A stretch of 64,000 bases of DNA from an uncultured virus (IMG/VR IMGVR_UViG_3300027734_000063) (IMGVR_UViG_3300027734_000063), one strand, 5' to 3'. Shown: positions 3,821 to 58,248, counted from the stretch's first letter. Program-made: numbers and translations. Notes: generated by a model from the sequence alone, not told the origin.

Positions 3821-4013
3821 ATATCGAGTATGTATAGCAAGGGAAGAGACCACCTTTTATTGGGTTGATGTCAATGCCAAAACCGAAAGCAAAGCTGAAG
3901 ACATGGCATGGGAAAGGTTCAATGAGGGTTCTTCTTCAATCATTGACAAGGGTGAAGTAGTTAATGCCGATGAATACATTGACAATGTAATCGAGGTGCA
4001 TGATGCCGACTAA
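3813..4013 (+). CDS. small protein, MPKx-V...VEA...A family
   Basis: GAGG RBS; MPKYRVCIAREE...VDVNAKTESKAEDMA. Confidence 0.7.
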   Translation: MPKYRVCIAREETTFYWVDVNAKTESKAEDMAWERFNEGSSSIIDKGEVVNADEYIDNVIEVHDAD

Positions 4014-4182
4014 ATGGAAAATAGTGCCATTCTTTGACTATGACGATTACTACCAAGTTGGCAGGACAGTCATGGTTGATGGCAAATATAAATTTGAATC
4101 AAAGGGCATCAAGTATCGGGACAAATCACAAGCCCAAACTTATGCGGACAAACTTAATAACAAGGAGAATCAAAATGCCTAA
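4000..4182 (+). CDS. hypothetical protein
   Basis: GAGG RBS; operon packing. Confidence 0.65.
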   Translation: MMPTKWKIVPFFDYDDYYQVGRTVMVDGKYKFESKGIKYRDKSQAQTYADKLNNKENQNA

Positions 4183-14016: not shown

Positions 14017-14047
14017 AGGGGTAGCCTAAAAAACTACCCCTTTTTTT
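14017..14047 (+). terminator. intrinsic terminator between convergent genes
   Basis: GGGGTAG-CCTAAAAAA-CTACCCC-TTTTTTT. Confidence 0.8.
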
Positions 14048-23000: not shown

Positions 23001-25097
23001 GGTGTGATAACCCTTACGGAAAGCAGCATCCATAAGCTTAATAAGGGTAGGCATGAGGCGTTGTTCATCCTCAGGCATCATATTCATACGGGTATTTTTA
23101 CTAGCCATCCAAGATAGCTCACCCAAAGCATCCATCAAGTCTTTATCGGCTTGTGCTTCTGGAGATAGGGCTTCTCCAGTAGCTTCTGGCGCTACAGTAG
23201 GAACAGTTTCCCCTTGTGCTTCTGCACGTTGAGCAGCTTGTCTATCACGATTATTTTGAGCTATTTCTTCTGGTGTTAGTGGAGGAGGTGCTGCCCAAGT
23301 TACTTTATCGCCTTGGTCTTCTTCTACAAGCTTATCAATAGCTTGTTGGGCATCTTCAGCTGTAACTTCTCCCGCAAATTCGCCATTCTTAACTTGGTCA
23401 AATATAGAAGGCTTTTCTTCAGAAGGAGCTTCTTCTGGTGCTTCTTGGTTATATGGAGCAGCTTTTTCAGCTTCAGATTGAGCAAACTCAATAGCTTTTT
23501 GTTTGCCTTCTTGATCCCCAAACTTGTCTGTTGGGAATGTTGTTGCAGAAACCATTTGGTTGGCATCATTGTCAAACAATACAGCCGTCCAGCCATTGTC
23601 ATTTTTAACAATACGATATTCTGTGTTCTCACCCATATCAATGGGAGGAATAGTTTCAGCTGGGGGAGCAACAGACTCAGTGGTCTGTTCACTCATCTTA
23701 TCCAGTAAAAGACCAAGTGTTTGCTGTGGCTCTTTTGCTGGAGTAATGCCATATTCTTTAGCTATCTTATTTAACTCTTTAGTGTTTGGTTCGCCAGTTG
23801 CTTCTGCTTTGGCAGCCCAATCATTTATTTTTGTTTCTAAATCGCTTGTTGCAACAGGTGCTACTACTGCAACAGGTGTTGCTGATGGTGGCGCATTAGG
23901 TGGGACAAAAGTTTCTAGATCACTTTCGTCTACCAAACCAGAAGGAGGGGCAGAAGGGGCATTAGGAGCTGGAACAACGGCTGGTGGGGCAGGAGGGGGG
24001 GAGGGGGGTACTTGTTCAGCTTCTGCTTTCTTACTCTTATAAGTTGCAGCTGCTTCTGCTGGAGCGCCAAATACTTCACCAATAGCTTCTTCTAATACAG
24101 CTCTAGGATTAACAGGCTGGTTGCTTGCATAAGATCCTAATCCCTCACCAGCAGCGCCTAAAGAAGCTTGCTTTGGTATTTCTTTGGCAACATCTTTGAC
24201 TGTTTCTTTCCAAACTTTGGTAGCTGTATTGTCAAATATCTTTTCAGCAATTTTGCCAGCTGACCTTAAAGAAGCTGCATCAAACATACCAATGATTGAT
24301 GACTTAACCATTGCCTTGTTATTGGCTTCTTCGTGGTTAAAACCTCTTTCTCTTAATTCAACGTACTGTTGACCATATTCCATCATTGCAGAAGAGCCAC
24401 CGCCAACAATTAAACCGCCTGTTGGACCAGCTGCCATACCAAATCTGGCAGCTACAGCCATAGCAATAGACTGTGGAAGACTACTTAGACCTACGTTGGC
24501 AATATAAGAAGGTAACTCATCAATGTTCTTAAGATATTCTTTGCCAATCATTCCAGCCTGTTGCCATTCAGTAGCTTTTTTAAACTCTGGCTTTTGTTCT
24601 AAAGCATCAATCTTTTTGGATAATGGGTCTTTGCCATACTTTTGTTCAATGGCTTTGACATCTTCTCCAGACTGCGCTAAATAACTTAAATTCTCACTAG
24701 CCTTCTTAACTGTATTAAGAATGTCTGATTTTTCTTTTTCTGGAGCATTTTCAAAGTTTTGCCCATACTTTCTTTTGTTAGCTTCAATTAACTCTAATTG
24801 AGAAGATAACTGCCACTGGGTAGGAACATTAGATAATGATTTAATTCCTTTAGCCAAAGAACCAATAGATGGGGTTGGTTCATTTGCCAGGTTAGATCCT
24901 GGCATGATGGCATCAATTGGACCAAATATTGATCTTTGTAATACGTCAGCTACTTTGGTAGAACCAGCCACAGGAGCAACATTTGCTTGTGGCGCATTAG
25001 GCATAATTTGAGTTTTAATGACATTAGATATCTCATCAGAAGACATCGTGTCAGGAAACTCAACTACGCCAACATATGGTATGTTGACTGACGGCAT
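14046..25097 (-). CDS. 3683-aa DarB-like large polyvalent protein: N6-adenine methyltransferase, Strawberry-notch SF2 helicase, HExxH region, LPD38-like C-terminus
   Basis: YEPTAGNG and IENPPFG (MTase); GDQTGVGKGR, LILDESH, SSATYAK, AGSTGLSLHA, QMLGRVHRTGQ (helicase); RHELTH; last gene of late operon. Confidence 0.88.
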   Translation of the reverse strand: MPSVNIPYVGVVEFPDTMSSDEISNVIKTQIMPNAPQANVAPVAGSTKVADVLQRSIFGPIDAIMPGSNLANEPTPSIGSLAKGIKSLSNVPTQWQLSSQLELIEANKRKYGQNFENAPEKEKSDILNTVKKASENLSYLAQSGEDVKAIEQKYGKDPLSKKIDALEQKPEFKKATEWQQAGMIGKEYLKNIDELPSYIANVGLSSLPQSIAMAVAARFGMAAGPTGGLIVGGGSSAMMEYGQQYVELRERGFNHEEANNKAMVKSSIIGMFDAASLRSAGKIAEKIFDNTATKVWKETVKDVAKEIPKQASLGAAGEGLGSYASNQPVNPRAVLEEAIGEVFGAPAEAAATYKSKKAEAEQVPPSPPPAPPAVVPAPNAPSAPPSGLVDESDLETFVPPNAPPSATPVAVVAPVATSDLETKINDWAAKAEATGEPNTKELNKIAKEYGITPAKEPQQTLGLLLDKMSEQTTESVAPPAETIPPIDMGENTEYRIVKNDNGWTAVLFDNDANQMVSATTFPTDKFGDQEGKQKAIEFAQSEAEKAAPYNQEAPEEAPSEEKPSIFDQVKNGEFAGEVTAEDAQQAIDKLVEEDQGDKVTWAAPPPLTPEEIAQNNRDRQAAQRAEAQGETVPTVAPEATGEALSPEAQADKDLMDALGELSWMASKNTRMNMMPEDEQRLMPTLIKLMDAAFRKGYHTFKKAAKFVRDLIKQAFGKDVSDKINLNHLQGAYIAMSGNYPDKATPIAEVAGVKAIEEIEVEEAKPAGKLDLTTPDGKYNIALVLADHFLEGNAFSTIVEARKFISELTGEKIEAATMQAKQADEAVEVGIVLAAQEISQNSKSPTEAYDRLVDLYNRQPNLAVRSSTSVREQAYSTPAPLAYVASQLAGINQNTTVYEPTAGNGMLLIAANPNIVIVNELNSSRAEMLKRVFPKAEVTVGNALKQEATLVDVVIENPPFGSTGENFDIDGFKTREIDHAIVMKSLQNMKPSGKAVLIIGGVRAEGEDARKEGYRSAAKRNFFVNLYDKYNVVDHFSVSGDMYTKQGASYPVDVIVINGDGKAERALPAAELPQQINSYEELKEKLNASMVSRANVSPSGTNIGKRTPGGANQENVAGSPSGQASRPSGGEQQSTGAGKPNVPTNGAGISGRPESTGAGTGEKQPKPANKPDNAPEGSTVPSAGKPKQPPSGKGAEGNKPGGVGGTSVVSGERIQSRLNDRRGKEEVTEGQVPYQPKSKANSVGTLVPGGMAQSIRESLDKVEAQVGDIDEYVSKELKFTKDELFNNFSAEQIDSLALSIFNADAGQGFIIGDQTGVGKGRVVAAMIKYALKNDRIPIFVTQFPNLFSDMIRDLDDIGMTKELALDTTDPKIFMTNVDQKVPYKLVRTVNGEKVEKELTLEPFSTDRPKQNAKMKELAAQGNLGNYKVIFTTYKQLQNVKGKATERQRFVQALADQNYLILDESHNAGVAGKEGTEGQQEGGDLGEGVVSEIIAPNIGSFIRMLVNDAYGSFFSSATYAKRADIMDLYASTDMKLAVKKISDLAEAIKNGGIPMQQIVANMLAKVGQYIRRERTFAGVSYNTEETKVNKETAENMATSMRDILAFSRAVGIAGKKLAGSLDTSGAVLAKKKDRVNVETVNFGSTMHNLIDQMLLSLKAQSSVDHAISRLKAGEKVVLTVSNTMGSFLESYSDEMELKKGDPINLNFSNLYLKYLKKQRQVTIKYPAKNGNPSYKEVRDLTDEELGPELTVAYNAIVKFIQNAGFEDAPVSPIDYMHYKLRQAGFKTGEITGRNIGINYSGATEASIPTLQAIKNTTKTKYEAITKFNGGEFDVLILNQAGSTGLSLHASENFKDQRKRHMIIVQAEKNIDTHMQMLGRVHRTGQIIPPAYSQMMADIPAEMRPAAILLKKMASLNANTTASRKSAVTAEGAVDFMNDYGGQVANELLADNPDLHESLGGDNAFPVKENSSEATEEDVRKLTGYIPILPIKEQEEFYKDLTERYKELLDREISMGTNKLEAKALDINAKTLSSTPITENKGDSLFAQPAFMELIEADRTVKPMSSEEVIEAAKKNLDGKSPGQLSLEQRDALTAKMRAYTAERIELEVEKKSDEVRLSTVRGQLNLQETHIDSILRTYTVGKFVTLTNELGVALTGAIIDVKNVGKTKNPAAGTDWKMTFALANGDARSITLPFSQIGKQYKLETVSSTNTFNYETQQFEDIPVIKQFDMGSQIRREKRWMVTGNILAGFAAVKNKGQITNFKDNEGYERQGILMPRAYDFAKEQKDAPVEIATADNAMRFLDEIGGTITSEDGILRITKSSYGNQYQFNVPSSKKEGGTYFLDRRLTDILGDFYKSGSTMYARGTAEEARKAIDVILNKRQETLVTKDNKERAKKLFAPEPLENIVPRKKTTKQIFDSRVRNEIIAEQRKLNAQERKLKRQIINGEVTLDAQREMTFIDERTKELEENLEAIKDKTPPDALSVHQRAERALRDGEISQDVFNVIHWMWNNSPALLTGLKLQIRKPTSKEEGATGSFNPLDRLVRLYKGTEGVTDPETARHELTHTLEQMMTPQVRKLIVQQWAKETKKAIKNNTDPASQDYFQAINDYMANPTKANYEKVRELVKDLNLYQYANPSDYWAVNAEKLMAMKMGTAWNRFVLAVKKLFEGMKSLFGFDNQYILYKTFDDLMKGKTPRMDYESLKHFFDMTGPSNELLFNIADDVKLLDKIGVEQPPVHTNNTVQDYLMGGYQTAKNIKTRILESPRNLIPGAVTGIDKLALGFRVKATDFTAGLAAEDAVRYDRELLDGEGRAVASIAADQQLKANHIATQVVTLGKLAFDPVNQMFKATEDKNSTGKIIQLAHEFGKEVGVKHAFRVINGYFEAKRSRSIVNEYLKRQGELETLKTEALDPDLPPDRQLALTVAIQNAQENFEGIDIARQKVNLKDTEIDDLIALEKKYPVLREMMDIWNDVSRNMVNMMEFGKIISKQTADMYRKIDDYVPWQRIQPEDISQDPSKPTFFYGAKGVRNVSREHKFKPGEVELALNNVLDNMVNHVVLTSRNVIKNYAANRIASEYGERNEKGKLKVYPKEDFARGIVKILVNGRKINIRIVDPLIAQAVIGMESMNIPLMGLMGFGAQTLRRTITYSGVFQLRQLFMDIPSTILVTGVRNPLSFYGSVFGSFVKSLNNNDPVVKILKAHGIGNIYSSSRTSMQYYDQTIGLLNGSKLQQTISLLEKIGDASDMAPRRATYLRVMKETKGDQRKALLASANVINWDKKGSSKVAQTLAHSISFMNAFAQQIDVLSQALLEPVAYGVEKTTGAKVKSVSGGLKGQARTEAIERLATAIACMQIGMLMYLFAIGDDEEYQRLDDQTKMRNFFVPRKLMKQIGYDHSLLIPLTTTAGYLVKAIPEMTYNRIITQGTKNEVDATRFWKALRHGGIDALLGPLASGPVPTVFKPFVEIGINHNFFTGGKVVPESMKHLEAYRQYNANVSQLGKWLSAATQVPFTGKKDDKGELVEGSKKRILSPIEADHLARGLFGSVAGLTMWMSDLLSSNKPTKEERNNPLYGSFVAPEVPRGREDLFYDLKARSDVAMTTFKTEMKNMNPTQGKKWFEANKGLIQANGFTQSAGASLNAITGQIRRIEDLPEKEMSAQEKRKEINFLKGKKEEILQDTIRFRLKAGL
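21446..21841 (-). CDS. overprinted 131-aa protein inside the giant gene
   Basis: AAGGAG 7 nt before ATG; amphipathic helical sequence while the host frame is a G/P/S-rich linker. Confidence 0.65.
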   Translation of the reverse strand: MPAWYPEQMSAPVGLTSVNVPQGELTRKMWLEALADRLVDLVEESNNPQELANQMCQQMGLASVEDPNQLGQVLVKNNLNLLTNLTMLQREVPFPAQVSQSNPLAEKALKETSLEEWVELALSVENASSLD

Positions 25098-32800: not shown

Positions 32801-33391
32801 TTACCCTAGAGCTTCTAAAGCCTTGGTTGTTTTGGCAATACGATCATCCAGACCAATAGTTCCACCATTAATCCGTTTTGTAATAATGCCATGTTCTTGA
32901 GCATCTGCCAACTCGTTTAGACCATGTTTATTCCAAAACCAGCCAGCGCTTAAAGTCGCATATTCAGGATCAAGTAACCGATCAGGATCCCCGACAAGAT
33001 CCACACCCATACTAGATCCGCATCGCTCATAGTTATCCTTGCCAGTTAGCTGGATAAGACCTCTTCCGTGGTACTTCCAGCCATCTCCATCTTCCGTATT
33101 TCCCATACGTCCAGAGTAAACCTTATTGGCTATCATCTGTGGATTATTAGCGTATTTGCTGGCGGTGTCCATATCTGGAAAACGGCTAGGCCAGACTTTC
33201 ATCAAGGATTCAGCTTTGTAATGAAGGTTCTCTTCTAACGTCTTGAAGTTCCCAGACTCATGGGAGCATTGACCAATAAACGCAGCCTGGCGCTTTGGCG
33301 TATTAATCTCGTACTTATCAAAGGTAGCCTGTAATGGTTCTTCCCATTTAGGATCAATACCAAGGGCATTAAGTGCGTTACTTAGACTCAT
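32801..33391 (-). CDS. glycoside hydrolase family 19 endolysin
   Basis: AAFIGQCSHES, YHGRGLIQLTG, AGWFW, ITKRINGG. Confidence 0.92.
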   Translation of the reverse strand: MSLSNALNALGIDPKWEEPLQATFDKYEINTPKRQAAFIGQCSHESGNFKTLEENLHYKAESLMKVWPSRFPDMDTASKYANNPQMIANKVYSGRMGNTEDGDGWKYHGRGLIQLTGKDNYERCGSSMGVDLVGDPDRLLDPEYATLSAGWFWNKHGLNELADAQEHGIITKRINGGTIGLDDRIAKTTKALEALG

Positions 33392-33788
33392 CTTTTGCTC
33401 TCTTCATATCCATAATCTTTTCAAGGGTGCGACCGCCAAAGTAAAACGACATAATCAACATACCCCATTGACCTAGTAGTTCTACATAGTTGTTGTTTAC
33501 TTCTATATCCCAAGCGGACATCATAGCAAAGGTAGAGTAGACAACCAAAATAAATACAAGGGTGGCTGGTCTAATGTTCTTGGATAACGTAGAGTCAGAA
33601 GCCATATCAGCTTGCTGTCTTTTAGTAAGCTCTTGTTGCTCTGCAGTATCTGCTGCAATTTGAGCCAGCTCGCCATTCTGTTGCATCTCAAGTAGTTTGA
33701 GTTTTGCTTGTTCTGCTTGTGCAGGATCAGGAAAGACTTTATCTAAAATCTTACCGCCAATATCTATTAGTGCGCCTAGTGGAAACAT
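33378..33788 (-). CDS. holin (3TM/GTA-holin-like)
   Basis: SKNIRP, two hydrophobic segments, FYFGGRTLEK; overlaps endolysin start. Confidence 0.8.
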   Translation of the reverse strand: MFPLGALIDIGGKILDKVFPDPAQAEQAKLKLLEMQQNGELAQIAADTAEQQELTKRQQADMASDSTLSKNIRPATLVFILVVYSTFAMMSAWDIEVNNNYVELLGQWGMLIMSFYFGGRTLEKIMDMKRAKDESK

Positions 33789-34518: not shown

Positions 34519-35280
34519 TTAAGCACTTTGTCTTAAACCTTTTGTAACGTATTTTTGTCTCATAGATTCAATTCTGGCTAAATCATCTGCATCCAAAACA
34601 GTCTCTTCCATTGTTTTTCTAAACTGGATGGCATAGTCTTCAAGCTGTTCTATGCTTCCATTGTATTGAAAATTCTGGGTAATTTTCTGGGTGTCATACG
34701 CATCCATAATGATGTGATAACGGTCTTCATCCGAATCGTTACGAATCTGATGCCAGTTGTTTACCCATACCATATAGGCTTTGCCAGCTTCCATGTGTAG
34801 GTTTGTACCATCGGAAATAAACAGGCACCTCTTATTAGTAAATAAAGGGATATGAATCCTGGCTATGTATTCTGTAAGCTCACCATCGGTATGCACTAAT
34901 GACTTGCAATGCGCCTTTAGACAAGTCACTCTGGCTCTTCTGGGTGTTAAGCCTAGCTTGGCAATTTGATCTAAGATATTTTTAATCTCACCTACACAAG
35001 CTTGGGTAGGCTTCTTATATTCCATTGAATGGGCTATGTTTAGATACTTCATGGCTTTCATATTAATGTCAGCCTTATCAGCGCCTTGATAGAACTCAAA
35101 GCCATCCTGCCAATCACCAGTACGGGATAACAGACTCCAGCCACCAAAACCTTGATACTGAGGAGTCTCGTATTCCTCACCCTGAATAACCTGATTGCCA
35201 AGCGGAAATACGCTACGCTTGACCTCTTCCCGTAAGGCATCAATGTCAAACTTAAGAAAGTCTAGCTCTTCGTAAAACAT
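34519..35280 (-). CDS. Asp/Asn beta-hydroxylase-like Fe(II)/2OG oxygenase
   Basis: HTD...RIHIPLFTN...WHQIRN...RYHIIMD (HxD...H triad plus Arg). Confidence 0.85.
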   Translation of the reverse strand: MFYEELDFLKFDIDALREEVKRSVFPLGNQVIQGEEYETPQYQGFGGWSLLSRTGDWQDGFEFYQGADKADINMKAMKYLNIAHSMEYKKPTQACVGEIKNILDQIAKLGLTPRRARVTCLKAHCKSLVHTDGELTEYIARIHIPLFTNKRCLFISDGTNLHMEAGKAYMVWVNNWHQIRNDSDEDRYHIIMDAYDTQKITQNFQYNGSIEQLEDYAIQFRKTMEETVLDADDLARIESMRQKYVTKGLRQSA

Positions 35281-35810
35281 TAGATATGCCCAGTTTCAGC
35301 CAGCATCCTGCAGACTTGCTCGTAATTGTATTTAGGTGTCCCCATGCAGATTGCCACTCTTTCATCTAAACCATTAATAGGTTCTACAGCATGAGGGTTA
35401 GTTACATCTAAGCACCAGGCATCGCCAACTTCAGCTACAAACGAACTAACCTCTGTTAACCCATCAGGGTCAAAAACGTAGCCGTTAGTCTGGCTTTCTA
35501 TTTGGGATATAGAGAACTCTGGCTTGGTTTCATAAAAGACTGTCCTGCAAGGCTTAGTCTTTACATAGAAGTTAATCGTGGTCTTAATCTCGCTATCGGT
35601 ATGGGGAGGGATGGCTTGATTAATCTGCATCATAGACAAATAGAAGTCTTTGACATATCTAGGCGGAATAACTTTGATAACTGACAATGGGTCAATATCA
35701 ACGTCAAAATACTCTATAGCACCGCCATAGGATACTTGCTTGCCCATCGCAAAAAACTCAAGGTTGTTGAACTTCGTCTTCAGCTTTTGGTGCATTTTTC
35801 CATGCCTCAT
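35280..35810 (-). CDS. Fe(II)/2OG oxygenase-like (cupin) protein
   Basis: IPPHTD...INFY...LDVTNPHAV...ERV; start may be 35795. Confidence 0.75.
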   Translation of the reverse strand: MRHGKMHQKLKTKFNNLEFFAMGKQVSYGGAIEYFDVDIDPLSVIKVIPPRYVKDFYLSMMQINQAIPPHTDSEIKTTINFYVKTKPCRTVFYETKPEFSISQIESQTNGYVFDPDGLTEVSSFVAEVGDAWCLDVTNPHAVEPINGLDERVAICMGTPKYNYEQVCRMLAETGHI

Positions 35811-36093
35811 ATTGACGAATCATTTCATGTGCCTGAGTTACATCACCATTCATGTTCCAGGAGTTGCCTAGAACGTGTTCAATTAGCGGAATACCATCGT
35901 GCAATAGTTCACGCAATACATCAGAATACTCTGATAACATCTTGAAAAGCTTAACTTTTTTATCTGGTGACATCGTAACAATGTCATGCCCAAGCTGGGT
36001 ATCAAAGAAATGGATAACGTGCTGACGATACAGCTCGGTATCTTCCATCCTTGTGTACTCTGCTACAGGGACTATGCTTTCTGTGTTTTCCAT
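35758..36093 (-). CDS. hypothetical protein
   Basis: AAGG RBS; overlaps both neighbours. Confidence 0.7.
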   Translation of the reverse strand: MENTESIVPVAEYTRMEDTELYRQHVIHFFDTQLGHDIVTMSPDKKVKLFKMLSEYSDVLRELLHDGIPLIEHVLGNSWNMNGDVTQAHEMIRQYEAWKNAPKAEDEVQQP

Positions 36094-36938
36094 GAAATAC
36101 CTTTGATGTTTAAGTTTGCTTTGGCGGTGTAATAGCTAAAGAAGAATAGCGCCCACATAGTCCAAGTAGCAACAAAGTCAGGCACTACACGCTTCTTAGG
36201 CAATAGGAATACCAGCTTACAGATAGGTCTACCAATTTTCATAATGGTACGACCCATATCGTTATCAGACTTAGTAGCCCCCATGAGGTAAGCCATATGC
36301 TGAGACCAAGGAGTAGCAATCTTATATGCCCATTTGGTAGCTGCTTCTTTCTGTTTGCGCTTACGGGTAGCCTCATCTCTGATCCAGATCATAAAGTCTG
36401 GTCCACCACCATCAATCCAAGCGGTAACGTTTCTAGCCCATTTAATGTAGCCACGGTAAACGATGCGGTCATTAGTCTTGAGCCATTCACCATAGGCCTG
36501 GTCAGCAACGAAGATGTCATAAGGCATCATGCCAATCTCATAGAGCTTGGTGCAGATAATCTTAGAGCAAGCACAGTTACAGTTGCAGTTATAAGTGGTA
36601 GCAGTAGCCACGCAGTTATAAGTACAGGCGCAGTTACAGTTAGTCTGTAACCATGATTGAGTCTGGTCTGTACTGCAATTGACCGTACCCCCGTATAGGC
36701 AGTTAGAACATTGGATGTTTCCGCAGTTACAGTTTGTTGCGCAGTTACCATTATCGCAATTTCCTGGCGCAGTTTTGAGGTAATACGTTAATCCATAGAA
36801 AGCACTTAAATTAGGCGTAGCTGGTGGGGTAAGTATTAAGGTGTTTAGAAATTGCAAGTTATTGGAGTAGGTAGAAGCCTGTCCAACTTCTACGTTGATA
36901 GCACTAATTGCTATTGGTCCTGAAGATGGTAATGTCAT
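36072..36938 (-). CDS. Cys/Asn-rich tail-tip adhesin-like protein with C-terminal KIICT domain; candidate rSAM substrate
   Basis: MTLPSSGPIAISAINVE start; 15 Cys in ~65 aa, 12 as Asn-Cys; then SKIICTKLY...GYIKWA and a hydrophobic C-terminus. Confidence 0.75.
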   Translation of the reverse strand: MTLPSSGPIAISAINVEVGQASTYSNNLQFLNTLILTPPATPNLSAFYGLTYYLKTAPGNCDNGNCATNCNCGNIQCSNCLYGGTVNCSTDQTQSWLQTNCNCACTYNCVATATTYNCNCNCACSKIICTKLYEIGMMPYDIFVADQAYGEWLKTNDRIVYRGYIKWARNVTAWIDGGGPDFMIWIRDEATRKRKQKEAATKWAYKIATPWSQHMAYLMGATKSDNDMGRTIMKIGRPICKLVFLLPKKRVVPDFVATWTMWALFFFSYYTAKANLNIKGISWKTQKA

Positions 36939-38377
36939 GCTGCTACCCTCGATTTTCCATAGATTTCTACATCATCAATCTTAGCCACAATCTCGCTGAC
37001 TACCTTAATTGGAATAACCCTTTTAGGGGTTTCTTTATGCTCATAGATTGTTCCAAATACATCTTGACGCTCTAATGGCAACGCATCATTCTTAATCAAT
37101 GTAGGAATGTAACCTGTCATTTTGTGCATTGCAAGAGCAAATAAAGCCACGTTATCTGAGTACGCATTGGCGCAGGAGATGTCCCAGAACTTCTTGTCTA
37201 GGAACATACAAGCGCCCTTACAGAGGTGAAGAACTGGGCAGGAAGAACATTCTTTACGGCTAGACCAATGGGTAGAGGTCTTGATCTCTACATTGTCATA
37301 GTCATCTAAAGTGCCACCCAAATGAGATTCACCGTTCTTAGAAGTCTCTACTGCGCTGACATTCTGGCAGGTTAAGACGTTACCTTTGAGGTCTACGGCT
37401 AGAACGTGTTCATTGTCCATGCCGCATTTTTGCCCTAGATATTTAGAATTCTGACGGGATAAAACCGCACCAGTAAAGTTGTTAATCTTGTCTAATTGCA
37501 TCTTAAAAGCAATGTCACCATCGGTAGAGAAGATGTCAGCAAACGCTGTTCTACGGAACTCAAAGTGATCCTGAAGGCTTTGTAGGGAGTTAGTAATGCC
37601 ATCCTCATCGTAAGCATCCACGATACCGCCTTCGCCTAATGAGATATTAGGATCGCCTGTTAGTTCTCTAAACCAGTCAGAGATCTCTTTACGGCTCTTA
37701 TTGTTGCGGGACAGCATAGAGTTAAAACTGATACCCTTTTTGAGACGGGTCATCTGGCGGTAAAAGCCAAGGATTAATTCTTTCTTAACTGGGTCATCAA
37801 AAGGATCTGGACCACGGACAGACTGCCCAGGACCATCATGAGAGATAGAGACAGTAAAGTCCATCATCATTAGCCAGTCAATGATCTCTTCAGTCAGGAT
37901 AGATCCGTTGGTAATAATGGAGAACTGGGGTTTCTTTTCCCAATGCTCAAACTTAGCCTGGATAGCTTCTGCCAAAGGTTTGAGGGTTTTCCAATAAACC
38001 AATGGCTCACCGCCCCAGAACTCTACCTTTAAGCCGTTTTCTTCAACAAAGTGGAGCTTTTCCATCTTTTCTAAGAAAGCGCTAATGTCTTTAGGGGAGG
38101 TTGAGTCTGAACGCTCTACAAACTTTTGGGAGCAATAGTCGCAGGAATAGTTACATCCCAAGCCTAACTGGATTTTAAGTAAACCAATGTTCTTAGACTT
38201 TTTAAGTGGGTGGTCTTTGTCAAACGGCACAAAAGGCTTGTTATCTACTGTTGGCATCTGATCGTCAGGAAACTTAAATACAGTACCATCTGCCCCTTCT
38301 AGAACGTTTGTTTCGTTATCGTAGAAGAAGACCTTCTTCTCGTTAGCGCTGCGTTCAGCGTGTATCTCAAAGAGCAT
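36935..38377 (-). CDS. radical SAM enzyme with SPASM domain
   Basis: CNYSCDYC, FWGGEP, ITNG, ISHDG; SPASM-type KCG...TCQ...CSSCPVLHLCKGAC...SC. Confidence 0.93.
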   Translation of the reverse strand: MLFEIHAERSANEKKVFFYDNETNVLEGADGTVFKFPDDQMPTVDNKPFVPFDKDHPLKKSKNIGLLKIQLGLGCNYSCDYCSQKFVERSDSTSPKDISAFLEKMEKLHFVEENGLKVEFWGGEPLVYWKTLKPLAEAIQAKFEHWEKKPQFSIITNGSILTEEIIDWLMMMDFTVSISHDGPGQSVRGPDPFDDPVKKELILGFYRQMTRLKKGISFNSMLSRNNKSRKEISDWFRELTGDPNISLGEGGIVDAYDEDGITNSLQSLQDHFEFRRTAFADIFSTDGDIAFKMQLDKINNFTGAVLSRQNSKYLGQKCGMDNEHVLAVDLKGNVLTCQNVSAVETSKNGESHLGGTLDDYDNVEIKTSTHWSSRKECSSCPVLHLCKGACMFLDKKFWDISCANAYSDNVALFALAMHKMTGYIPTLIKNDALPLERQDVFGTIYEHKETPKRVIPIKVVSEIVAKIDDVEIYGKSRVAA

Positions 38378-39153
38378 TAGATTGTTCCGTAAGCGGTTAC
38401 GTTACCTGTACAGACTAGGTTGCCAGTTGAATCTAATCGCATCTTATTGACCCCCCCATAGCGGAAATAGAGGTATCCAGCAGATTCTAAAACTGTCCAG
38501 TTAGCACCTAGTAACTGGGTGGCACTTGCAGCCAAGGTAGCGTTACCTGCGGTAAAGGAAGCGCCTGTGCCTGTAAGACCTGTTCCTGGACCAACAAACT
38601 GGGTAGAAGCGGTAATAGTGGTTCCAGTTGCAGCAGCCAAGGTAGTAGCGCCAGTAACGGCTAGAGTAGTTCCTACGCTAAGACTAGTCGTATTGGTCTG
38701 CGCCCCTCCAACTAACAATGTTCCGTTAACGTAAAAGTTACCCGCAGAGCCAGTCTGGGAAGAGTAGAAGTTAGTGCCGTTACAAAATACTTGGGCGGTA
38801 ATTCCGTTGGGAATGGTAACTGCTACACCTGTAGTGCCGCCAATGGTAATGGCAAAACCGCCTGTAGTTTGGTTAGAGATGATATAAGTCTTCTCTACTA
38901 ATGGGGCTACGACTTGCCGAATAGCAGAGTTTGTACCAGAAATGACTAAAACTTGATTGCGGGCTTCATCAGCCGTGCCGTTAAAACTTGTTAGAACATA
39001 GTCTGCATTAGACATGGTAATCGGTTGAACGCCAGTAATGGCTTGTTCTAGGAGGATTCCCAAGTTGTTATTGGTTGTGCTGCCCCATGTACCAGACTGG
39101 TCTCCAGCACCGATAAGCTCTAATTTAAGCGATGGTGAATAGGTAGAAGCCAT
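38377..39153 (-). CDS. tail fibre protein
   Basis: T/G/A-rich; GTWGSTTNNN start; C-terminal MRLDSTGNLVCTGNVTAY fibre-tip motif. Confidence 0.75.
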   Translation of the reverse strand: MASTYSPSLKLELIGAGDQSGTWGSTTNNNLGILLEQAITGVQPITMSNADYVLTSFNGTADEARNQVLVISGTNSAIRQVVAPLVEKTYIISNQTTGGFAITIGGTTGVAVTIPNGITAQVFCNGTNFYSSQTGSAGNFYVNGTLLVGGAQTNTTSLSVGTTLAVTGATTLAAATGTTITASTQFVGPGTGLTGTGASFTAGNATLAASATQLLGANWTVLESAGYLYFRYGGVNKMRLDSTGNLVCTGNVTAYGTI

Positions 39154-41640: not shown

Positions 41641-42513
41641 TTAAGCTGTAAATACACCGCTAGTTGTAAAGGTGTGATAAGTGTATCCACCAGAAGAGCT
41701 AATATCCCCTCCTGTACCCCGTTGAGAACCTAAATAACGGACGATAACTATTCCAGAACCACCAGCATAACCAGCAACGTTAGAAGGTCCACCGCCACCG
41801 CCACCACCTGTGTTAGCTGAACCAACAGCGCCACTACCACCGCCACCATTACCACCAGCACCGTTAGTTCCAGAGCTGTAATAACCACCACCGCCACCGC
41901 CAGCGTAATAAGTACCGTTTAGCCATTGAAGTCCAACTCCACCAGCACCGCCATTATTTGTTCCGCCATTAGTAGAACCAACTGCACCAGCTCCTCCACC
42001 ACCGCCGCCACCGCCATCTGGAGCGCCACCACCTGTGTTTCCTTGTCCAACTACAGAAACGCCACCATCACCTCCTGGACGAGCGCCACCACCTGAACCA
42101 CCTGAACCACCACTTTGCTGACCTGATGTATACGAACCTCCGCCTCCACCACCAGAAGCAGATATGTTTCCAGATGAAAAAGTGCTATTTGAACCTGTGC
42201 TTCCACGAGTACCACCTGTACCACCAGCTCCGCCAGCGCCAGGAGAAGCTCCATATTTATTGCCCGTAGTAACCACCATAGAATTAGCAATATACCCACC
42301 AGCTCCGCCGCCGCCACCGCCGTAGTAAACAGCCCCAATAGCAGAACCACCTCCGCCACCTCCAGCTACAACTAAATAATCAACAAAATAATTAGATGTG
42401 CCTAAACCGCCGTTGGCAACAGGCAATACTCCACTAACACCAGCAGTCAAAGAAACCTGACCAGACGAATTTACGTTAGTACCAAGAGCGCCTAAGTTAG
42501 CTGCTTGTGTCAT
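41641..42513 (-). CDS. glycine-rich tail fibre/adhesin protein
   Basis: YLVVAGGGGGG...ANTGGGGGG...GGSGIVIVRY. Confidence 0.8.
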   Translation of the reverse strand: MTQAANLGALGTNVNSSGQVSLTAGVSGVLPVANGGLGTSNYFVDYLVVAGGGGGGSAIGAVYYGGGGGGAGGYIANSMVVTTGNKYGASPGAGGAGGTGGTRGSTGSNSTFSSGNISASGGGGGGSYTSGQQSGGSGGSGGGARPGGDGGVSVVGQGNTGGGAPDGGGGGGGGAGAVGSTNGGTNNGGAGGVGLQWLNGTYYAGGGGGGYYSSGTNGAGGNGGGGSGAVGSANTGGGGGGGPSNVAGYAGGSGIVIVRYLGSQRGTGGDISSSGGYTYHTFTTSGVFTA

Positions 42514-44878: not shown

Positions 44879-46318
44879 TTAAGCTGTATATGTACCAGAT
44901 GATGTAAAGGTGTGATAAGTGTATCCACCAGCAGAAGTAACTGTACCGCCAGTACCACGTTGTGCGCCTGAGTAGCGAATAATAACAATTCCAGAACCTC
45001 CATTACCGTTTGTTCCGCTTGAGTTCATGCCAGCACCGCCGCCTCCACCGCCTGTATTAGCAGTTGCGTTTGAACCAAGTGATCCAGTTCCAGCACCATT
45101 ACCGCCACCACCAGCACCACCTGTTCCAAAATTACTTGTTGTGTTATATAGACCGCCGCCTCCGCCACCAGCGTAGTAAGTTCCAAGAGACTGCCAATTT
45201 AAACCATTGCCCCCGCTACCAGCAACAGAAGTAGTCGCATTTCCACCAGCAGCGGCAGCGCCACCACCTCCACCTGCTGGATAATTTCCACCTGATTGAC
45301 CATTACCGCCAGTGTTACCTTGTCCAGAAGTTCCAGCTCCACCCAACCCGCTATAGCCAGAACCACCGCCGCCAGAGCCACCAGAACCACCATTAAATGT
45401 ATTACTTCCATTACCACCGCCACCGCCACCAATTGCAGTGGAAGAAGAAAAAACAGAACTTGTTCCTTGAGAGCCATTTGTTGGTGATCCAGATGAACTA
45501 CCGCCAGCGCCACCAGCGCCTACAGTTACTGTATAAGCTGTCCCTCCCGCCGCTGTATATGTAGTCGCAATATACCCACCAGCTCCGCCGCCGCCGCCTC
45601 CAACATAGCCACCTGAACTATATGTTCCGCCACCACCGCCACCACCAGCTACAACCAAATAATCAATAGCATAAGGAGCGCTATCAGCAAAATTAACCCA
45701 AGTTGTATACGTTGCGTTATACCATTCTGGATTACCAGTTGTTGTATTAAACCTCATCATTCCAGCAGCTGGTGTGCCAGGTCTTTCAGCAGTTGTACCA
45801 ACAGGAATAGTTAATGCAGTAGTACCGTAAATCTTAGCGCCACCAGCGTAATACAAGTCCATCATTGCAGAACGGCTAGACGAACCACCATGATAGAAAA
45901 TCATGTCATCTAATGGACCTGTAGTCAAACGAGCTGCACCTGTAACGTAATCAACAATAACTCCATCAATATAAGAGTTACCAAAGTCACCAGTGGCTAA
46001 GTAACCACCAGATGCAGTAATGTCACCAATAACGGATGGGTCTTGAGAGATAGCAGCGTAAGTAGTAATAAGGCTAGTGTACTCAACCCAGATGTTGTTT
46101 GTGCCAGATAGCGGAGCAGATGTAAACGTAATTGCATTACCAGATACAGTAAAAGCTGTGCTTGGGTTCTGAATGACGTTATCAATAGCGCAAATGATCT
46201 GCGCCACAGAAGCTATGTTACGAGACAGAGTAAAAGTTACAGTTACGCCATTACCGCTAAAGTAATCAATAGCTGGGGCAAAGCCCTGATTCTGAACTGT
46301 ATTACCGATGTATGGCAT
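44879..46318 (-). CDS. glycine-rich tail fibre protein
   Basis: MPYIGN head, PVGTTAERP...GMMRFN linker, Gly-rich C-domain paralogous to 41641-42513. Confidence 0.8.
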   Translation of the reverse strand: MPYIGNTVQNQGFAPAIDYFSGNGVTVTFTLSRNIASVAQIICAIDNVIQNPSTAFTVSGNAITFTSAPLSGTNNIWVEYTSLITTYAAISQDPSVIGDITASGGYLATGDFGNSYIDGVIVDYVTGAARLTTGPLDDMIFYHGGSSSRSAMMDLYYAGGAKIYGTTALTIPVGTTAERPGTPAAGMMRFNTTTGNPEWYNATYTTWVNFADSAPYAIDYLVVAGGGGGGGTYSSGGYVGGGGGGAGGYIATTYTAAGGTAYTVTVGAGGAGGSSSGSPTNGSQGTSSVFSSSTAIGGGGGGNGSNTFNGGSGGSGGGGSGYSGLGGAGTSGQGNTGGNGQSGGNYPAGGGGGAAAAGGNATTSVAGSGGNGLNWQSLGTYYAGGGGGGLYNTTSNFGTGGAGGGGNGAGTGSLGSNATANTGGGGGGAGMNSSGTNGNGGSGIVIIRYSGAQRGTGGTVTSAGGYTYHTFTSSGTYTA

Positions 46319-54640: not shown

Positions 54641-55549
54641 TTAAGCGCCTTGTGATCCCCACATTCCGAGTGGATCAGACCAGCCAAAGCTATAACGTTC
54701 ACGAGACTTGTAACGGACGTTACCAGTATCGAAGTCGCCATCCATGCCAGTACTCAAAGGAGTACGGACAAAGTGCTTCATGCCGTTAGGTACATCAGTT
54801 GTCAAGAACCAAGCATTGGTGTCGGTCAAGAAGTGGTTAATTGTGTAACCATCTGGAATCGAACCATTGTTCTTAATTGCGTTGATGTCGTTATCAGCTG
54901 TACCAACACGCAATTCAGTTTCGAGCAAACGAGTTGCAACGAACTGTAGTGCAGGTGGAACAACCAACTTCTTAGGTTTAGCAGCAATTAACAATGAACG
55001 CTCGTCTGTCCACAGAGAGATTTGAATAACAGCGGCTTCCAAAGAAGTCTCATTCAAGTCAGCTGGGGTTGTAGGAATGTTACTGTTAGTGCCACCAGAA
55101 ACCAATGGGTGGTCATTAGCAAACAATGCAACACCGTCACCACCTGGGTAGGAAGCGGAGAAGCCATTGTTCAATACAGAAGCAGCACGAACTTGCTTTG
55201 TATACGCCATGGAACGAGCTAACGCCTTGGTATAACGAGCACTTAAGCTGTCATACAAGTTGTCCTCAATTGCCTCTTCCGTTAGGGAGAAGCCCTGAGC
55301 AATCGTTACGTGTGTATAGCGAGCTGTCCAAGCCTCTTGACCGTTGTCATAAGCAATTGCGGAGCCTTCGTTTTTAACTGGGGCAGCACTAAAGCCTGAC
55401 AATTTGGTCTCTTCTTCGAAAGAACGCTCAGAGGTCTCTGTTTCATAGATCTCTTTGTGCTCTTGTCCATATGTTGCGTACTCAAGTCCGAACAATGCGT
55501 TCAATCCTGGGAGCAACTCTTTCAGTAGTTGTGCTCTTGAAATAGCCAT
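54641..55549 (-). CDS. major capsid protein (Mu gpT-like family)
   Basis: MAISRAQLLKELLPGLNALFG, EEAIEDNLY, LVVPPAL, RERYSFGWSD; AGGAG RBS; terminator downstream. Confidence 0.9.
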   Translation of the reverse strand: MAISRAQLLKELLPGLNALFGLEYATYGQEHKEIYETETSERSFEEETKLSGFSAAPVKNEGSAIAYDNGQEAWTARYTHVTIAQGFSLTEEAIEDNLYDSLSARYTKALARSMAYTKQVRAASVLNNGFSASYPGGDGVALFANDHPLVSGGTNSNIPTTPADLNETSLEAAVIQISLWTDERSLLIAAKPKKLVVPPALQFVATRLLETELRVGTADNDINAIKNNGSIPDGYTINHFLTDTNAWFLTTDVPNGMKHFVRTPLSTGMDGDFDTGNVRYKSRERYSFGWSDPLGMWGSQGA

Positions 55550-58064: not shown

Positions 58065-58248
58065 CCGAGTTCTCCATTCTATGTTTGAGGTCTGTTAAGG
58101 TTAAACACGCAGACTCAAGACCTCTAATTTGTCCACATGCGTACTTATATTCCTCAAAATTGGTGCAATTTCCCGCAGAAACAGCTTTTTGGAGCATGTC
58201 TATGCGTTCTTTGTACTCTCTTAAGAGGTAATCAAGGTTTTGATCCAC
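58057..58248 (-). CDS. hypothetical protein
   Basis: EEYKYACGQIRGLE; coupled to portal stop. Confidence 0.78.
   Translation of the reverse strand: MDQNLDYLLREYKERIDMLQKAVSAGNCTNFEEYKYACGQIRGLESACLTLTDLKHRMENSDE

What the first reader, a model, noticed from the sequence alone, without database searches (positions are those of the whole stretch)
34519..39153. RiPP-like maturation cassette in the tail operon: radical SAM/SPASM enzyme, Asn-Cys-repeat adhesin-like protein, two Fe/2OG oxygenases
Seen: five overlapping or abutting genes directly after a tail-fibre gene ending GNVTAYGTI. They encode a CxxxCxxC radical SAM protein with a SPASM Cys set, a protein containing GNCDNGNCATNCNCGNIQCSNC...TNCNCACTYNC...YNCNCNCAC (15 Cys, 12 preceded by Asn), an unknown 111-aa protein, and two HxD...H oxygenases, one Asp/Asn beta-hydroxylase-like. 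Established: rSAM/SPASM enzymes next to Cys-rich peptides form thioether cross-links (sactipeptides, ranthipeptides), and AspH-type enzymes hydroxylate Asn/Asp. Inference: the putative precursor is not a secreted peptide but starts MTLPSSGPIAISAINVE, a start I associate with tail-tip adhesin genes that follow fibre genes. The phage may therefore cross-link and hydroxylate its own receptor-binding tip with RiPP chemistry. I know of no characterised system of this kind.
Basis: partly seen in the sequence, partly recalled or inferred. Interest (0 to 1): 0.93.

Follow-up and report, generated by a model that had tools for sequence, protein, structure and literature searches.

The report
Radical-SAM-matured Asn-Cys phage fibre tips
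A phage carries, among its tail-fibre genes, a radical-SAM enzyme and two oxygenases beside a fibre-type protein with an Asn-Cys repeat; this pairing recurs across many unrelated phages and prophages and probably marks an undescribed enzymatic hardening of fibre tips.

Summary
In detail: five abutting minus-strand genes (34519-38377) follow a fibre-like gene. They encode a radical SAM/SPASM enzyme, a 288-aa Asn/Cys-rich protein, a 111-aa unknown, a cupin-fold Fe/2OG oxygenase and an AspH-type hydroxylase.

The link between the enzyme and the Asn-Cys motif holds in both directions.
- From the enzyme: 90 of 100 loci with enough flank have a Cys-run ORF beside it. Eight of the ten misses carry a less regular homologue.
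- From the motif: where a DNA pattern for (Asn-Cys)4 lies at the C-terminus of a real ORF, 40 of 44 viral loci have the enzyme downstream on the same strand. Where the pattern is non-coding noise, 0 of 27 do.

The motif sits at the end of fibre proteins. Some carry collagen repeats. In others it is followed directly by a self-cleaving S74 or Hint module.

The run residues before Cys are 64% Asn, 16% Asp and 10% Ala. The enzyme has the seven-Cys SPASM pattern of thioether-forming maturases. I infer Cys-to-Asn/Asp thioether stapling plus hydroxylation of a fibre tip.

No chemistry was tested. I found no description in print.

The parts
38377..39153 (-). Fibre-like protein (258 aa) directly upstream of the cassette. 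It is context and a possible attachment partner, and is not itself Cys-rich.
   Evidence: phrog_12796 tail fiber protein 1.4e-8 and phrog_31104 2.2e-13. Homologues precede the radical SAM gene only in part of the related loci.
36935..38377 (-). Radical SAM/SPASM enzyme (480 aa), the proposed maturase.
   Evidence: Pfam PF04055 4.2e-10. TIGR04085 SPASM 35.1 bits against cut-off 27, with best NCBIfam hits PapB 84.8 bits and QhpD 78.5 bits, all below their equivalog cut-offs. phrog_1802 3.3e-63. Invariant C75, C79, C82, C337, C377, C380, C386, C390, C402 and near-invariant C318 in 15 divergent homologues. PDB profile hits are 8vpo, anSME 4k36 and CteB 5wgg.
36072..36938 (-). Asn/Cys-rich fibre-type protein (288 aa), the proposed substrate.
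   Evidence: No Pfam, PHROG, NCBIfam or PADLOC family. At least 322 clusters of relatives in the 5.8-billion-protein set, all 'hypothetical'; four carry PF13884. It lies on the same strand as, and next to, the radical SAM gene in 79 of 79 enzyme-anchored viral loci.
36552..36770 (-). Asn-Cys-rich region (residues 57-129) of the 288-aa protein: 16 Cys, 12 preceded by Asn, ending in YNCNCNCAC-SKIIC.
   Evidence: Conservation table over 82 homologues. AlphaFold2 cannot model it (pLDDT about 30).
36075..36551 (-). C-terminal all-helical module (residues 130-288) with a hydrophobic last helix. It is replaceable: other members carry Peptidase_S74 here or nothing.
   Evidence: pLDDT 80-90 and helices only; no fold match. 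The same module ends a 938-aa Gly-rich fibre protein (L156) and a gene next to fibre genes in Synechococcus phage SynMITS9220M01. Variants are L157 (S74) and L158 (none).
35758..36093 (-). 111-aa acidic helical protein of unknown role; a clade-specific accessory.
   Evidence: No family hit. W98 invariant in 30 homologues. One or two copies sit between the Asn/Cys gene and the oxygenases. Absent from divergent loci.
35280..35810 (-). 176-aa Fe(II)/2OG-oxygenase-fold protein.
   Evidence: Invariant H70, D72, H140, R151. AlphaFold2 pLDDT 93.3. VIA-align top matches are 2OG oxygenases: ALKBH6 Z 10.0 (rmsd 4.0, 145 aligned), proline 3-hydroxylase Z 9.9, AspH Z 8.5. Present in 72 of 73 distinct cassettes.
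34519..35280 (-). 253-aa Asp/Asn beta-hydroxylase-family 2OG oxygenase.
   Evidence: PF05118 1.5e-10, 41.6 bits against cut-off 22.6. Invariant H130, D132, H177. PDB profile hit to 'Beta-hydroxylase' 7v4f 1.6e-5. It is the last gene of the cassette in 73 of 73 distinct loci that were selected for having it.

Best explanation
The cassette is a post-translational maturation module for a phage fibre-type structural protein. The core, shared by many unrelated phages and prophages, is a protein whose mature C-terminal end is a run of X-Cys dipeptides (X mostly Asn, then Asp or Ala), encoded next to a radical SAM/SPASM enzyme and usually one or more Fe/2OG oxygenases.

Most likely mechanism (inferred, not shown):
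1. The enzyme binds a Cys thiolate of the run on its incompletely ligated auxiliary Fe-S cluster.
2. It abstracts a hydrogen from a neighbouring Asn/Asp side chain and forms Cys-S-to-carbon thioether links. NCNC contains the N-x-x-C spacing used by NxxcB.
3. This gives the fibre end a reduction-proof covalent staple. Disulfides could not provide that in the host cytoplasm.
4. The AspH-type and cupin-type oxygenases hydroxylate residues of the same region.

In the window's clade the Asn/Cys domain is a separate 288-aa protein. It has an N-terminal domain, perhaps for docking to the preceding fibre, and a replaceable C-terminal helical module. That module stands where other members carry a self-cleaving S74 or Hint domain, so the Asn-Cys run probably ends up at or near the mature C-terminus.

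Shown here: gene content, conservation, two-way genomic linkage, domain fusions and enzyme folds. Inferred: substrate identity, thioether chemistry, hydroxylation target, virion location.
For: Linkage, starting from the enzyme:
- 79 of 79 viral loci found with the window's enzyme have a homologue of the 288-aa protein next to it on the same strand.
- Among 164 enzyme-anchored loci (viral and bacterial genomes), 100 had at least 4 kb upstream and 1.5 kb downstream. Of these, 90 have a same-strand Cys-run ORF. Eight of the ten misses carry a less regular homologue already found. The true misses are L164 and L361.
- The control rate is 54 of 6069 other six-frame ORFs. 12 of 14 informative enzyme clusters at 60% identity are positive.
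- With a stricter pattern, 49 of 57 genome loci are positive against 2 of 5516 control ORFs.

Linkage, starting from the motif (80 viral loci fetched with a degenerate DNA pattern for (Asn-Cys)4):
- Motif in frames shorter than 60 aa: 0 of 27 have the enzyme.
- Motif within 12 residues of the C-terminus of an ORF of at least 60 aa: 40 of 44 have it, all on the same strand, a median of 1290 bp downstream. Three of the four misses are cut by a contig end.

Structural context:
- The run ends a collagen-repeat protein (PF01391 1.2e-33).
- It is directly followed by Peptidase_S74 (L157, 1.4e-7) or by Hint (phage JWF gp028, PF05203 3e-12 starting at the Cys after ...NCNCS).
- It ends RSP15's annotated side tail fibre.
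- In the window it lies between fibre genes and the lysis genes.

Chemistry leads:
- X in 50 enzyme-anchored runs is N 155, D 40, A 24 of 243.
- NxxcB makes a Cys-Asn beta-thioether and tolerates Ala, Gln and Asp as acceptor (PMC9389541, passages read).
- PapB links Cys to Asp/Glu (PMC12373016, abstract). PapB and QhpD are the best NCBIfam matches.
- The family has 7 conserved SPASM-region Cys. Its spacing in the alignment with CteB is C-G-x16-C, whereas anSME has an extra Cys there.

Oxygenases:
- PF05118 and a 2OG fold in the window.
- PF13759-type oxygenases in 56 of 73 window-type cassettes.
- An HMM of that kind hits 56 of 80 genome loci.
Against: - No mass or structural datum exists; the chemistry rests on family resemblance only.
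- By profile search against solved structures the enzyme is about as close to anaerobic sulfatase-maturating enzyme (81 bits, full length) as to the thioether former CteB (69 bits). All NCBIfam equivalog cut-offs are missed by a wide margin.
- No PqqD-like recognition domain was detected.
- AlphaFold2 gives no model of the Asn/Cys region.
- The window's 111-aa, 176-aa and AspH-like genes are absent from the divergent loci. Their tie to the Asn-Cys run is therefore weaker than the enzyme's, and they might serve the C-terminal helical module instead.
- Alternating X-Cys in a beta-strand would put Cys and Asn on opposite faces, which suits a metal-binding ladder as well as cross-links.
- Virion presence is not documented for any member.
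- RSP15 has only a weak NCQC tail.
Confidence: 0.6

Rival explanations
1. The enzyme modifies the X-Cys run by a chemistry other than thioether formation. One option is anSME-like oxidation of Cys to formylglycine; others are epimerisation or a carbon-carbon or ether cross-link. The product is still a matured fibre end.
For: anSME is the second-best solved relative and aligns over the full length including SPASM (81 bits). Like anSME, the enzyme acts beside full-size proteins and has only a short N-terminal extension of about 60 aa with no PqqD/RRE hit. The phage JWF record annotates its homologue as anaerobic sulfatase-maturating enzyme.
Against: The anSME NCBIfam model scores 54.4 bits against a cut-off of 349, below PapB at 84.8. 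The sulfatase motif C/S-x-P/A-x-R (recalled) is absent from the runs. The family lacks the extra Cys that anSME has next to the first SPASM Cys. That this Cys completes the cluster ligation in anSME is recalled, not tested.
Confidence: 0.2
2. The X-Cys run is a metal- or iron-sulfur-binding ladder along the axis of a trimeric fibre, analogous to the His-x-His iron sites of T4-type fibres. The enzyme has an indirect or different role.
For: A strict alternation of X-Cys would place all Cys on one face of a strand (read from the sequences). Many tails end in CGC, CC or CGCC. AlphaFold2 fails on the region, as it often does for metal-dependent folds. The His-x-His precedent is recalled from the T4 gp37 literature and was not checked here.
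Against: It does not explain the near-obligate two-way linkage with one radical SAM/SPASM clade. It also does not explain the dominance of Asn/Asp/Ala at X.
Confidence: 0.1
3. The cassette makes a released RiPP (a toxin, signal or lysis-associated peptide) from the Cys-rich protein. It is a cargo gene set that merely sits among tail genes.
For: Some relatives have short precursors of 67-110 aa, sometimes in tandem (three in L162; two in a Bradyrhizobium locus). Tailoring genes such as a Trp-halogenase-like gene occur in one lineage. The window's cassette abuts the lysis genes.
Against: No leader peptidase or exporter was seen among cassette genes in the Pfam scans. The run is found at the end of proteins of 300-620 aa with collagen repeats, S74 or Hint modules, and in annotated tail-fibre genes. 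The short forms share the conserved GNG..TF.DGT type of N-terminus and lie between fibre genes.
Confidence: 0.07

Closest known systems
QhpD/QhpC (quinohemoprotein amine dehydrogenase maturation)
   Same: A radical SAM/SPASM enzyme installs Cys-to-Asp/Glu thioethers in a protein subunit that stays part of a larger assembly, not in a secreted peptide (function recalled). It is the second-best NCBIfam match (TIGR03906, 78.5 bits).
   Different: The score is far below the equivalog cut-off of 453. The substrate here is a phage fibre-type protein with X-Cys runs. There is no dehydrogenase context, and 2OG oxygenases accompany the enzyme.
Ranthipeptide maturases PapB/PapA, NxxcB/NxxcA, CteB/CteA
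   Same: SPASM enzymes that join Cys sulfur to a side-chain carbon. NxxcB's native acceptor is Asn, and Ala, Gln and Asp are tolerated (PMC9389541), matching the N/D/A make-up of the runs. PapB is the best NCBIfam hit. The SPASM Cys spacing is CteB-like.
   Different: The substrates are short leader-bearing peptides of bacteria. Here they are proteins of 67-624 aa with fibre modules, encoded by phages. No RRE domain was detected. The PapB model scores 84.8 bits against a cut-off of 340.
Anaerobic sulfatase-maturating enzyme (anSME)
   Same: A SPASM enzyme that modifies a Cys in a full-size folded-protein precursor without a leader. It aligns full length at 81 bits.
   Different: No sulfatase and no sulfatase motif are present. 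NCBIfam scores 54.4 bits against a cut-off of 349. One Cys fewer in the auxiliary-cluster region.
HXS antiphage system (HxsB/HxsC maturing HxsA with His-x-Ser repeats)
   Same: Radical SAM enzymes mature a full protein bearing short residue repeats, in the phage-host conflict (PMC13128918, abstract and outline read). HxsB is among the NCBIfam hits (59.4 bits).
   Different: HXS is a bacterial defence effector in the periplasm with H-x-S repeats. This is a phage structural module with X-Cys runs and 2OG oxygenases.
Tail-fibre/tailspike C-terminal intramolecular chaperone (Peptidase_S74) and Hint autoprocessing modules
   Same: In relatives the X-Cys run is followed at once by S74 (L157; P0045, P0102, P0104, P0108) or Hint (JWF gp028, L297, L355). 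These modules release the upstream part as the mature C-terminus (mechanism recalled).
   Different: The window's protein instead has an unrelated helical module with no known fold. No self-cleavage has been shown for it.

Membership tests
Radical SAM superfamily | CX3CX2C cluster motif and a Radical_SAM domain | tested here: met
   PF04055 4.2e-10, 40.5 bits against cut-off 29.5. C75, C79 and C82 are invariant in 15 divergent homologues.
SPASM subfamily | C-terminal seven-Cys motif CX9-15GX4C...CX2CX5CX3C...C | tested here: met
   TIGR04085 35.1 bits against cut-off 27. C318 (near-invariant), C337, C377, C380, C386, C390 and C402 are conserved.
PapB-family ranthipeptide maturase (NF047865) | Score above the equivalog cut-off | tested here: not met
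   84.8 bits against cut-off 340.
Ranthipeptide/sactipeptide RiPP system | Short precursor with a leader and a Cys-rich core | tested here: not met
   The window's candidate substrate is a 288-aa three-part protein. Relatives range from 67 to 624 aa.
Ranthipeptide/sactipeptide RiPP system | RiPP recognition element (PqqD-like) in or beside the maturase | tested here: inconclusive
   No PqqD-type Pfam hit at E up to 0.01 on the enzyme or the 111-aa protein. The enzyme's conserved N-terminal stretch of about 60 aa was not modelled.
Ranthipeptide/sactipeptide RiPP system | Leader peptidase and/or exporter in the cluster | tested here: not met
   None among cassette genes in the Pfam scans of the window and 20-odd related loci.
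Ranthipeptide/sactipeptide RiPP system | Thioether cross-links in the product | not testable with these tools
   This needs mass spectrometry or NMR.
Anaerobic sulfatase-maturating enzyme (TIGR03942) | Equivalog score; a sulfatase substrate with the C/S-x-P/A-x-R motif | tested here: not met
   54.4 bits against cut-off 349.45. No such motif in the runs; the motif itself is recalled.
Asp/Asn beta-hydroxylase family (PF05118), 253-aa protein | Domain match above the gathering score; His-x-Asp...His iron ligands | tested here: met
   41.6 bits against cut-off 22.6. H130, D132 and H177 are invariant in 26 homologues.
Fe(II)/2OG oxygenase superfamily, 176-aa protein | Double-stranded beta-helix fold with His-x-Asp...His and a basic residue for 2OG | tested here: met
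   pLDDT 93.3. Top VIA-align rows are 2OG oxygenases, Z 10.0 to 8.0. H70, D72, H140 and R151 are invariant. No Pfam hit, and hhalign to the AspH-like family gives probability 0.1.
Phage tail fibre with a self-cleaving C-terminal module (Peptidase_S74) | S74 domain after the fibre part | tested here: not met
   Not present in the window's protein. Present in family members L157 (PF13884 1.4e-7) and in four database clusters.

The most novel reading that the evidence does not exclude
Tailed phages of many lineages (podo-, sipho-, myo-like and jumbo contigs, plus prophages of Burkholderiales, Bradyrhizobium and Rhodobacteraceae) use a dedicated radical SAM enzyme, with 2OG oxygenases, to install covalent non-disulfide cross-links in an (Asn/Asp-Cys)n tail at the tip of their fibres. 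These links might even join the three chains. That would be a new class of enzymatically stapled virion proteins: RiPP chemistry turned into a structural principle of the host-recognition apparatus.
Probability: 0.45. Interest if true: 0.92.

Novelty: new variant of a known kind. Interest (0 to 1): 0.86.

Why it matters
Phage fibres are assembled in a reducing cytoplasm and must then survive outside the cell. Known solutions are interdigitated trimers, metal sites and self-cleaving chaperones.

An enzyme-installed covalent staple would be a further solution. It is apparently widespread: the enzyme family has 354 confirmed relatives in one scan of species-representative genomes, and the window-type substrate has at least 322 protein clusters.

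It would also give radical SAM/SPASM maturases and the many orphan phage '2OG-Fe(II) oxygenase' genes a concrete structural substrate. It would supply a compact, genetically encoded reduction-proof cross-linking tag, (Asn-Cys)n plus one enzyme, for protein engineering. Finally, it would flag a fibre feature that structure predictors cannot model.

Tried and rejected
**Searches that found nothing**
- DNA similarity of the cassette to 50,697 phage records: no match.
- Pfam, PHROGs, NCBIfam and PADLOC gave nothing for the 288-aa, 111-aa and 176-aa proteins. The PADLOC pVip hits of the enzyme cover only the generic radical SAM core.
- PDB sequence profiles of the 176-aa and 288-aa families gave only chance-level rows.
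- ESM Atlas on the C-terminal module found only unnamed viral clusters. For the 176-aa protein it gave 2OG/AspH clusters at 0.90, a lead only.

**Structure and complex attempts**
- AlphaFold2 of the 288-aa protein leaves the Asn/Cys region unmodelled. Foldseek on the helical rest had no match at E up to 0.001.
- hhalign of the 176-aa family against the AspH-like family: probability 0.1.
- Complex prediction of the 288-aa protein with the 111-aa protein: no answer, score 0.01. This is no evidence either way.

**Comparative checks that came back empty**
- HMMs of the 111-aa, 176-aa and AspH-like families found nothing in 87 divergent loci.
- HMMs of the RSP15-ORF047-like and JWF-gp029-like families found nothing in the window.

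The window's own assembly is not held.

**Literature (full-text searches; none describes this system)**
- 'radical SAM' + 'tail fiber' + thioether + phage
- 'Achromobacter phage JWF'
- SPASM + bacteriophage + 'structural protein' + cysteine-rich
- 'radical SAM' + 'receptor-binding protein' + bacteriophage + post-translational: 0 papers
- ranthipeptide + phage
- 'radical SAM' + phage + tail + 'anaerobic sulfatase'
- RiPP + 'tail fiber' + maturase
- phage-encoded + 'radical SAM' + SPASM + virion
- The Lumi/JWF paper PMC9959647 does not mention the enzyme. Subscription journals and closed supplements were not searchable.

**Idea considered and dropped**
- A Ser-Lys dyad cleavage at the conserved CNC-SKIIC junction, by analogy with S74. 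The Ser-to-Lys spacing differs between the window's protein and L156, so I make no claim.

Full report
**1. What is in the window**

One search shows an unbroken minus-strand gene string:
- a fibre-like gene, 38377-39153 (258 aa, ending GNVTAYGTI)
- a 480-aa gene, 36935-38377
- a 288-aa gene, 36072-36938
- a 111-aa gene, 35758-36093
- a 176-aa gene, 35280-35810
- a 253-aa gene, 34519-35280

After these come two small genes, a holin (33378-33788; PF11351, phrog_3427) and a GH19 endolysin (32801-33391).

The window is a phage genome. It has a large terminase at 60690-62186, a portal at 58248-60680, a major head protein at 54641-55549, a long series of fibre-like genes between about 39.1 and 50 kb, and replication genes below 13.6 kb.

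**2. The five gene products**

- The 480-aa protein is a radical SAM/SPASM enzyme. Pfam PF04055 scores 4.2e-10, and TIGR04085 scores 35.1 bits against a cut-off of 27. Its best NCBIfam matches are PapB (84.8 bits), QhpD (78.5), a geopeptide maturase and CcpM, all far below their equivalog cut-offs.
- The 253-aa protein is an Asp/Asn beta-hydroxylase-family oxygenase (PF05118, 41.6 bits against 22.6). H130, D132 and H177 are invariant.
- The 176-aa protein has no family hit. H70, D72, H140 and R151 are invariant in 40 homologues. Its AlphaFold2 model (pLDDT 93.3) is closest to Fe/2OG oxygenases: ALKBH6 Z 10.0, proline 3-hydroxylase Z 9.9, prolyl hydroxylases and AspH Z 8.5. Foldseek also lists cupins and OkaE.
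- The 111-aa protein remains unknown.
- The 288-aa protein has 17 Cys, 12 of them in Asn-Cys pairs, and no family in any library.

**3. The cassette is conserved**

A scan of viral contigs with the enzyme gave 79 loci (65-100% identity). All 79 have a homologue of the 288-aa protein on the same strand next to it.

Among 130 loci that hold the enzyme, the 288-aa homologue and the AspH-like gene, 73 are distinct. All 73 keep the order enzyme, Asn/Cys protein, then accessories, then AspH-like. The 176-aa oxygenase is present in 72 of the 73.

Many of these cassettes hold extra genes:
- PF13759 2OG oxygenases (63 genes in 56 loci)
- second copies of the 176-aa and 111-aa families
- a fatty-acid-desaturase-family membrane di-iron protein in 19 loci (PF00487, 4.4e-16)

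Only some loci have a homologue of the window's 258-aa fibre upstream. Contig sizes range up to 356 kb. The cassette therefore travels as a module between different phages.

**4. Anatomy of the 288-aa family**

In 82 distinct members, C61, C109, C122, C124, C129, Y107 and N108 are invariant, and most other Asn-Cys pairs are near-invariant (alignment). The protein has three parts:
- an N-terminal domain (1-56)
- the Asn/Cys region (57-129), which AlphaFold2 cannot model (pLDDT about 30)
- a confident all-helical C-terminal module ending in a hydrophobic helix

The third part is exchangeable:
- L157 and four database clusters carry a Peptidase_S74 intramolecular-chaperone domain directly after the last X-Cys run.
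- L158, L198 and L190 end right after the run.
- The helical module also ends a 938-aa glycine-rich fibre protein without any Asn/Cys region (L156), and a gene beside fibre genes in a Synechococcus phage.

**5. The link goes far beyond the window's clade**

The only named phages with the enzyme at 44-45% identity are Achromobacter phage JWF and Ralstonia phage RSP15.
- In JWF the gene two upstream is a fibre protein. Its sequence ...QNCNCDCNCNCS is followed at once by a Hint domain (PF05203, 3e-12, starting at that Cys).
- In RSP15 the annotated side tail fibre three genes upstream ends ...NTNCQCGN.
- A contig with an enzyme 47% identical to JWF's (L162) has three tandem genes of 92-109 aa. 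Each ends in NCNCNCACNC, NCNCNCNC or YNCNCACNC. They lie between an S74 fibre, 2OG oxygenases and the enzyme.

**6. Converse test, from the motif**

I searched viral contigs for a degenerate DNA pattern encoding (Asn-Cys)4. One search sorts them:

| Where the motif lies | Loci | With the enzyme (tblastn E ≤ 1e-5, 26-100% identity) |
|---|---|---|
| Frame shorter than 60 aa (noise) | 27 | 0 |
| Within 12 residues of the C-terminus of an ORF ≥ 60 aa | 44 | 40 |
| Internal to an ORF | 9 | 2 |

- All 40 positives in the C-terminal class have the enzyme on the same strand, a median of 1290 bp downstream.
- Three of the four misses have less than 750 bp of contig left. One (L240) has room and lacks the enzyme.
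- One of the two internal positives is a member of the 288-aa family.
- By distinct tails, 34 of 37 are positive.
- The tailed proteins range from 67 to 624 aa. One has collagen triple-helix repeats (PF01391, 1.2e-33).

**7. Forward test, in bacterial genomes**

A profile of 15 divergent enzymes found 354 confirmed relatives in species-representative genomes, of which 80 were kept. They come mostly from Burkholderiales (Limnohabitans, Polynucleobacter at 58% identity, Paraburkholderia, Burkholderia paludis MSh1), and also from Bradyrhizobium and Rhodobacteraceae.

- Of 57 loci with at least 4 kb upstream, 49 have an upstream same-strand ORF with four or more [NDASTGQ]-Cys units. Only 2 of 5516 other six-frame ORFs do.
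- Five of the eight misses carry runs that the strict pattern missed (L289, L331, L357, L358, L364). Three have none (L352, L361, L365).
- 54 of the 57 runs found are C-terminal, two are followed by a Hint-like CFP..., and one is followed by GTCCFP.

Pooling all 164 enzyme-anchored loci:
- 90 of the 100 with enough flank are positive by a fixed criterion. The control rate is 54 of 6069.
- Eight of the ten misses are window-type loci whose less regular homologue was already found by similarity.
- 12 of 14 informative enzyme clusters at 60% identity are positive.

**8. Other recurrent partners**

- In the divergent loci a family like RSP15 ORF047 (245-390 aa, no Pfam) lies between the tailed gene and the enzyme. 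It occurs in 26 viral loci and 48 of 80 genome loci.
- PF13759-type 2OG oxygenases are hit in 56 of 80 genome loci.
- The window's own accessories (111-aa, 176-aa, AspH-like) are absent from these divergent loci.

The universal core is thus the tailed protein plus the enzyme, usually with some 2OG oxygenase. The window's set is one clade's version.

**9. What chemistry?**

This part is inference.

- In 50 distinct enzyme-anchored C-terminal runs (4-7 units), the residue before Cys is Asn 155, Asp 40 and Ala 24 of 243.
- NxxcB forms a beta-thioether from Cys to an Asn three residues upstream, and accepts Ala, Gln and Asp (PMC9389541, passages). N-C-N-C contains that N-x-x-C spacing.
- PapB links Cys to Asp/Glu (PMC12373016, abstract).
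- The alignments show that the family shares with CteB the pattern C-G-x16-C at the start of SPASM. anSME has a further Cys six residues after the first. From memory, that extra Cys completes the ligation of the first auxiliary cluster in anSME, while thioether formers leave a site for the substrate thiolate. I did not check this in a paper.
- Against a firm call: anSME is as close as CteB by profile score (81 against 69 bits), and no recognition domain was detected.

I put thioether formation at roughly one in two, another radical modification of the run at one in five, and a mainly metal-binding role at one in ten.

**10. Why a fibre end?**

S74 and Hint modules cut themselves off and leave the preceding residues as the mature C-terminus (mechanism recalled). 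Their position right after the run, together with the many proteins that simply end with it, points to the run being the distal end of the mature fibre protein. A covalent cross-link made in the cytoplasm would do there what disulfides cannot.

Receptor binding itself is untested.

**11. Known or new?**

Nine full-text searches found no description of a radical SAM enzyme acting on phage fibre proteins, or of Asn-Cys-tailed fibres. Database names for the 288-aa family are all 'hypothetical protein'.

The nearest precedents are radical SAM maturation of protein subunits or effectors: QhpC (recalled) and HxsA (PMC13128918, abstract). I therefore rate it a new variant of a known kind of system, with a bolder reading still open.

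**12. Limits**

- All evidence is genomic and predictive.
- Loci in the counts are not all independent. I give distinct-tail and cluster counts where I made them.
- bioRxiv supplements and subscription journals could not be searched.

Noticed in passing
L198:3702-4904 (minus strand); also L190: In a sister lineage (enzyme 60% identical to the window's) the cassette is S74 fibre, a 133-aa Asn/Cys protein ending NCNCNCNCNCNCNC, the radical SAM gene, a 331-aa unknown, then a flavin-dependent Trp-halogenase-family gene (PF04820, 1.2e-31). This is a further tailoring enzyme beside the same substrate type.
   Followed up: partly
L003:8616-9317 and 18 other window-type loci: A fatty-acid-desaturase-family membrane di-iron protein (PF00487, 4.4e-16) sits inside the cassette. 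The 288-aa protein's last helix is hydrophobic, so part of the maturation may take place at the membrane.
   Followed up: no
window 14046-25097 (minus strand): A single 3683-aa ORF follows an ejection-protein-like gene. Its only PHROG hits are a methyltransferase-like stretch at residues 866-1011. It may be a giant internal or ejected virion protein.
   Followed up: no
L180:1749-3215 and 3215-4684 (minus strand): Two radical SAM genes lie in tandem downstream of a 95-aa protein ending NCYNCNCNCNC. The second (PF04055, 1.5e-14) belongs to another radical SAM type.
   Followed up: no
L216:4545-5492; L218:10654-11598: Phage contigs carry a TRAP-transporter solute-binding protein gene (DctP, PF03480, up to 7e-50) two genes after the radical SAM gene.
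   Followed up: no
L002:5314-6129 (RSP15 ORF047) and relatives: An uncharacterised 245-390-aa family lies between the X-Cys-tailed gene and the enzyme in 26 viral and 48 of 80 genome loci. It is absent from the window's clade. It could be a third core component: a chaperone, a partner or a tip protein.
   Followed up: partly
window 41641-42513 and 44879-46318 (minus strand): Glycine-rich fibre-like proteins (phrog_2295) sit among at least eight small fibre-type genes between 39.1 and 50 kb. That is an unusually large fibre repertoire for a genome of this size.
   Followed up: no
L288 (Polynucleobacter), L289 (Paraburkholderia), L292-L353 (Limnohabitans and others): The closest genomic relatives of the enzyme are in freshwater Betaproteobacteria, presumably in prophages. 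This hints at the host range of the window's phage group.
   Followed up: partly
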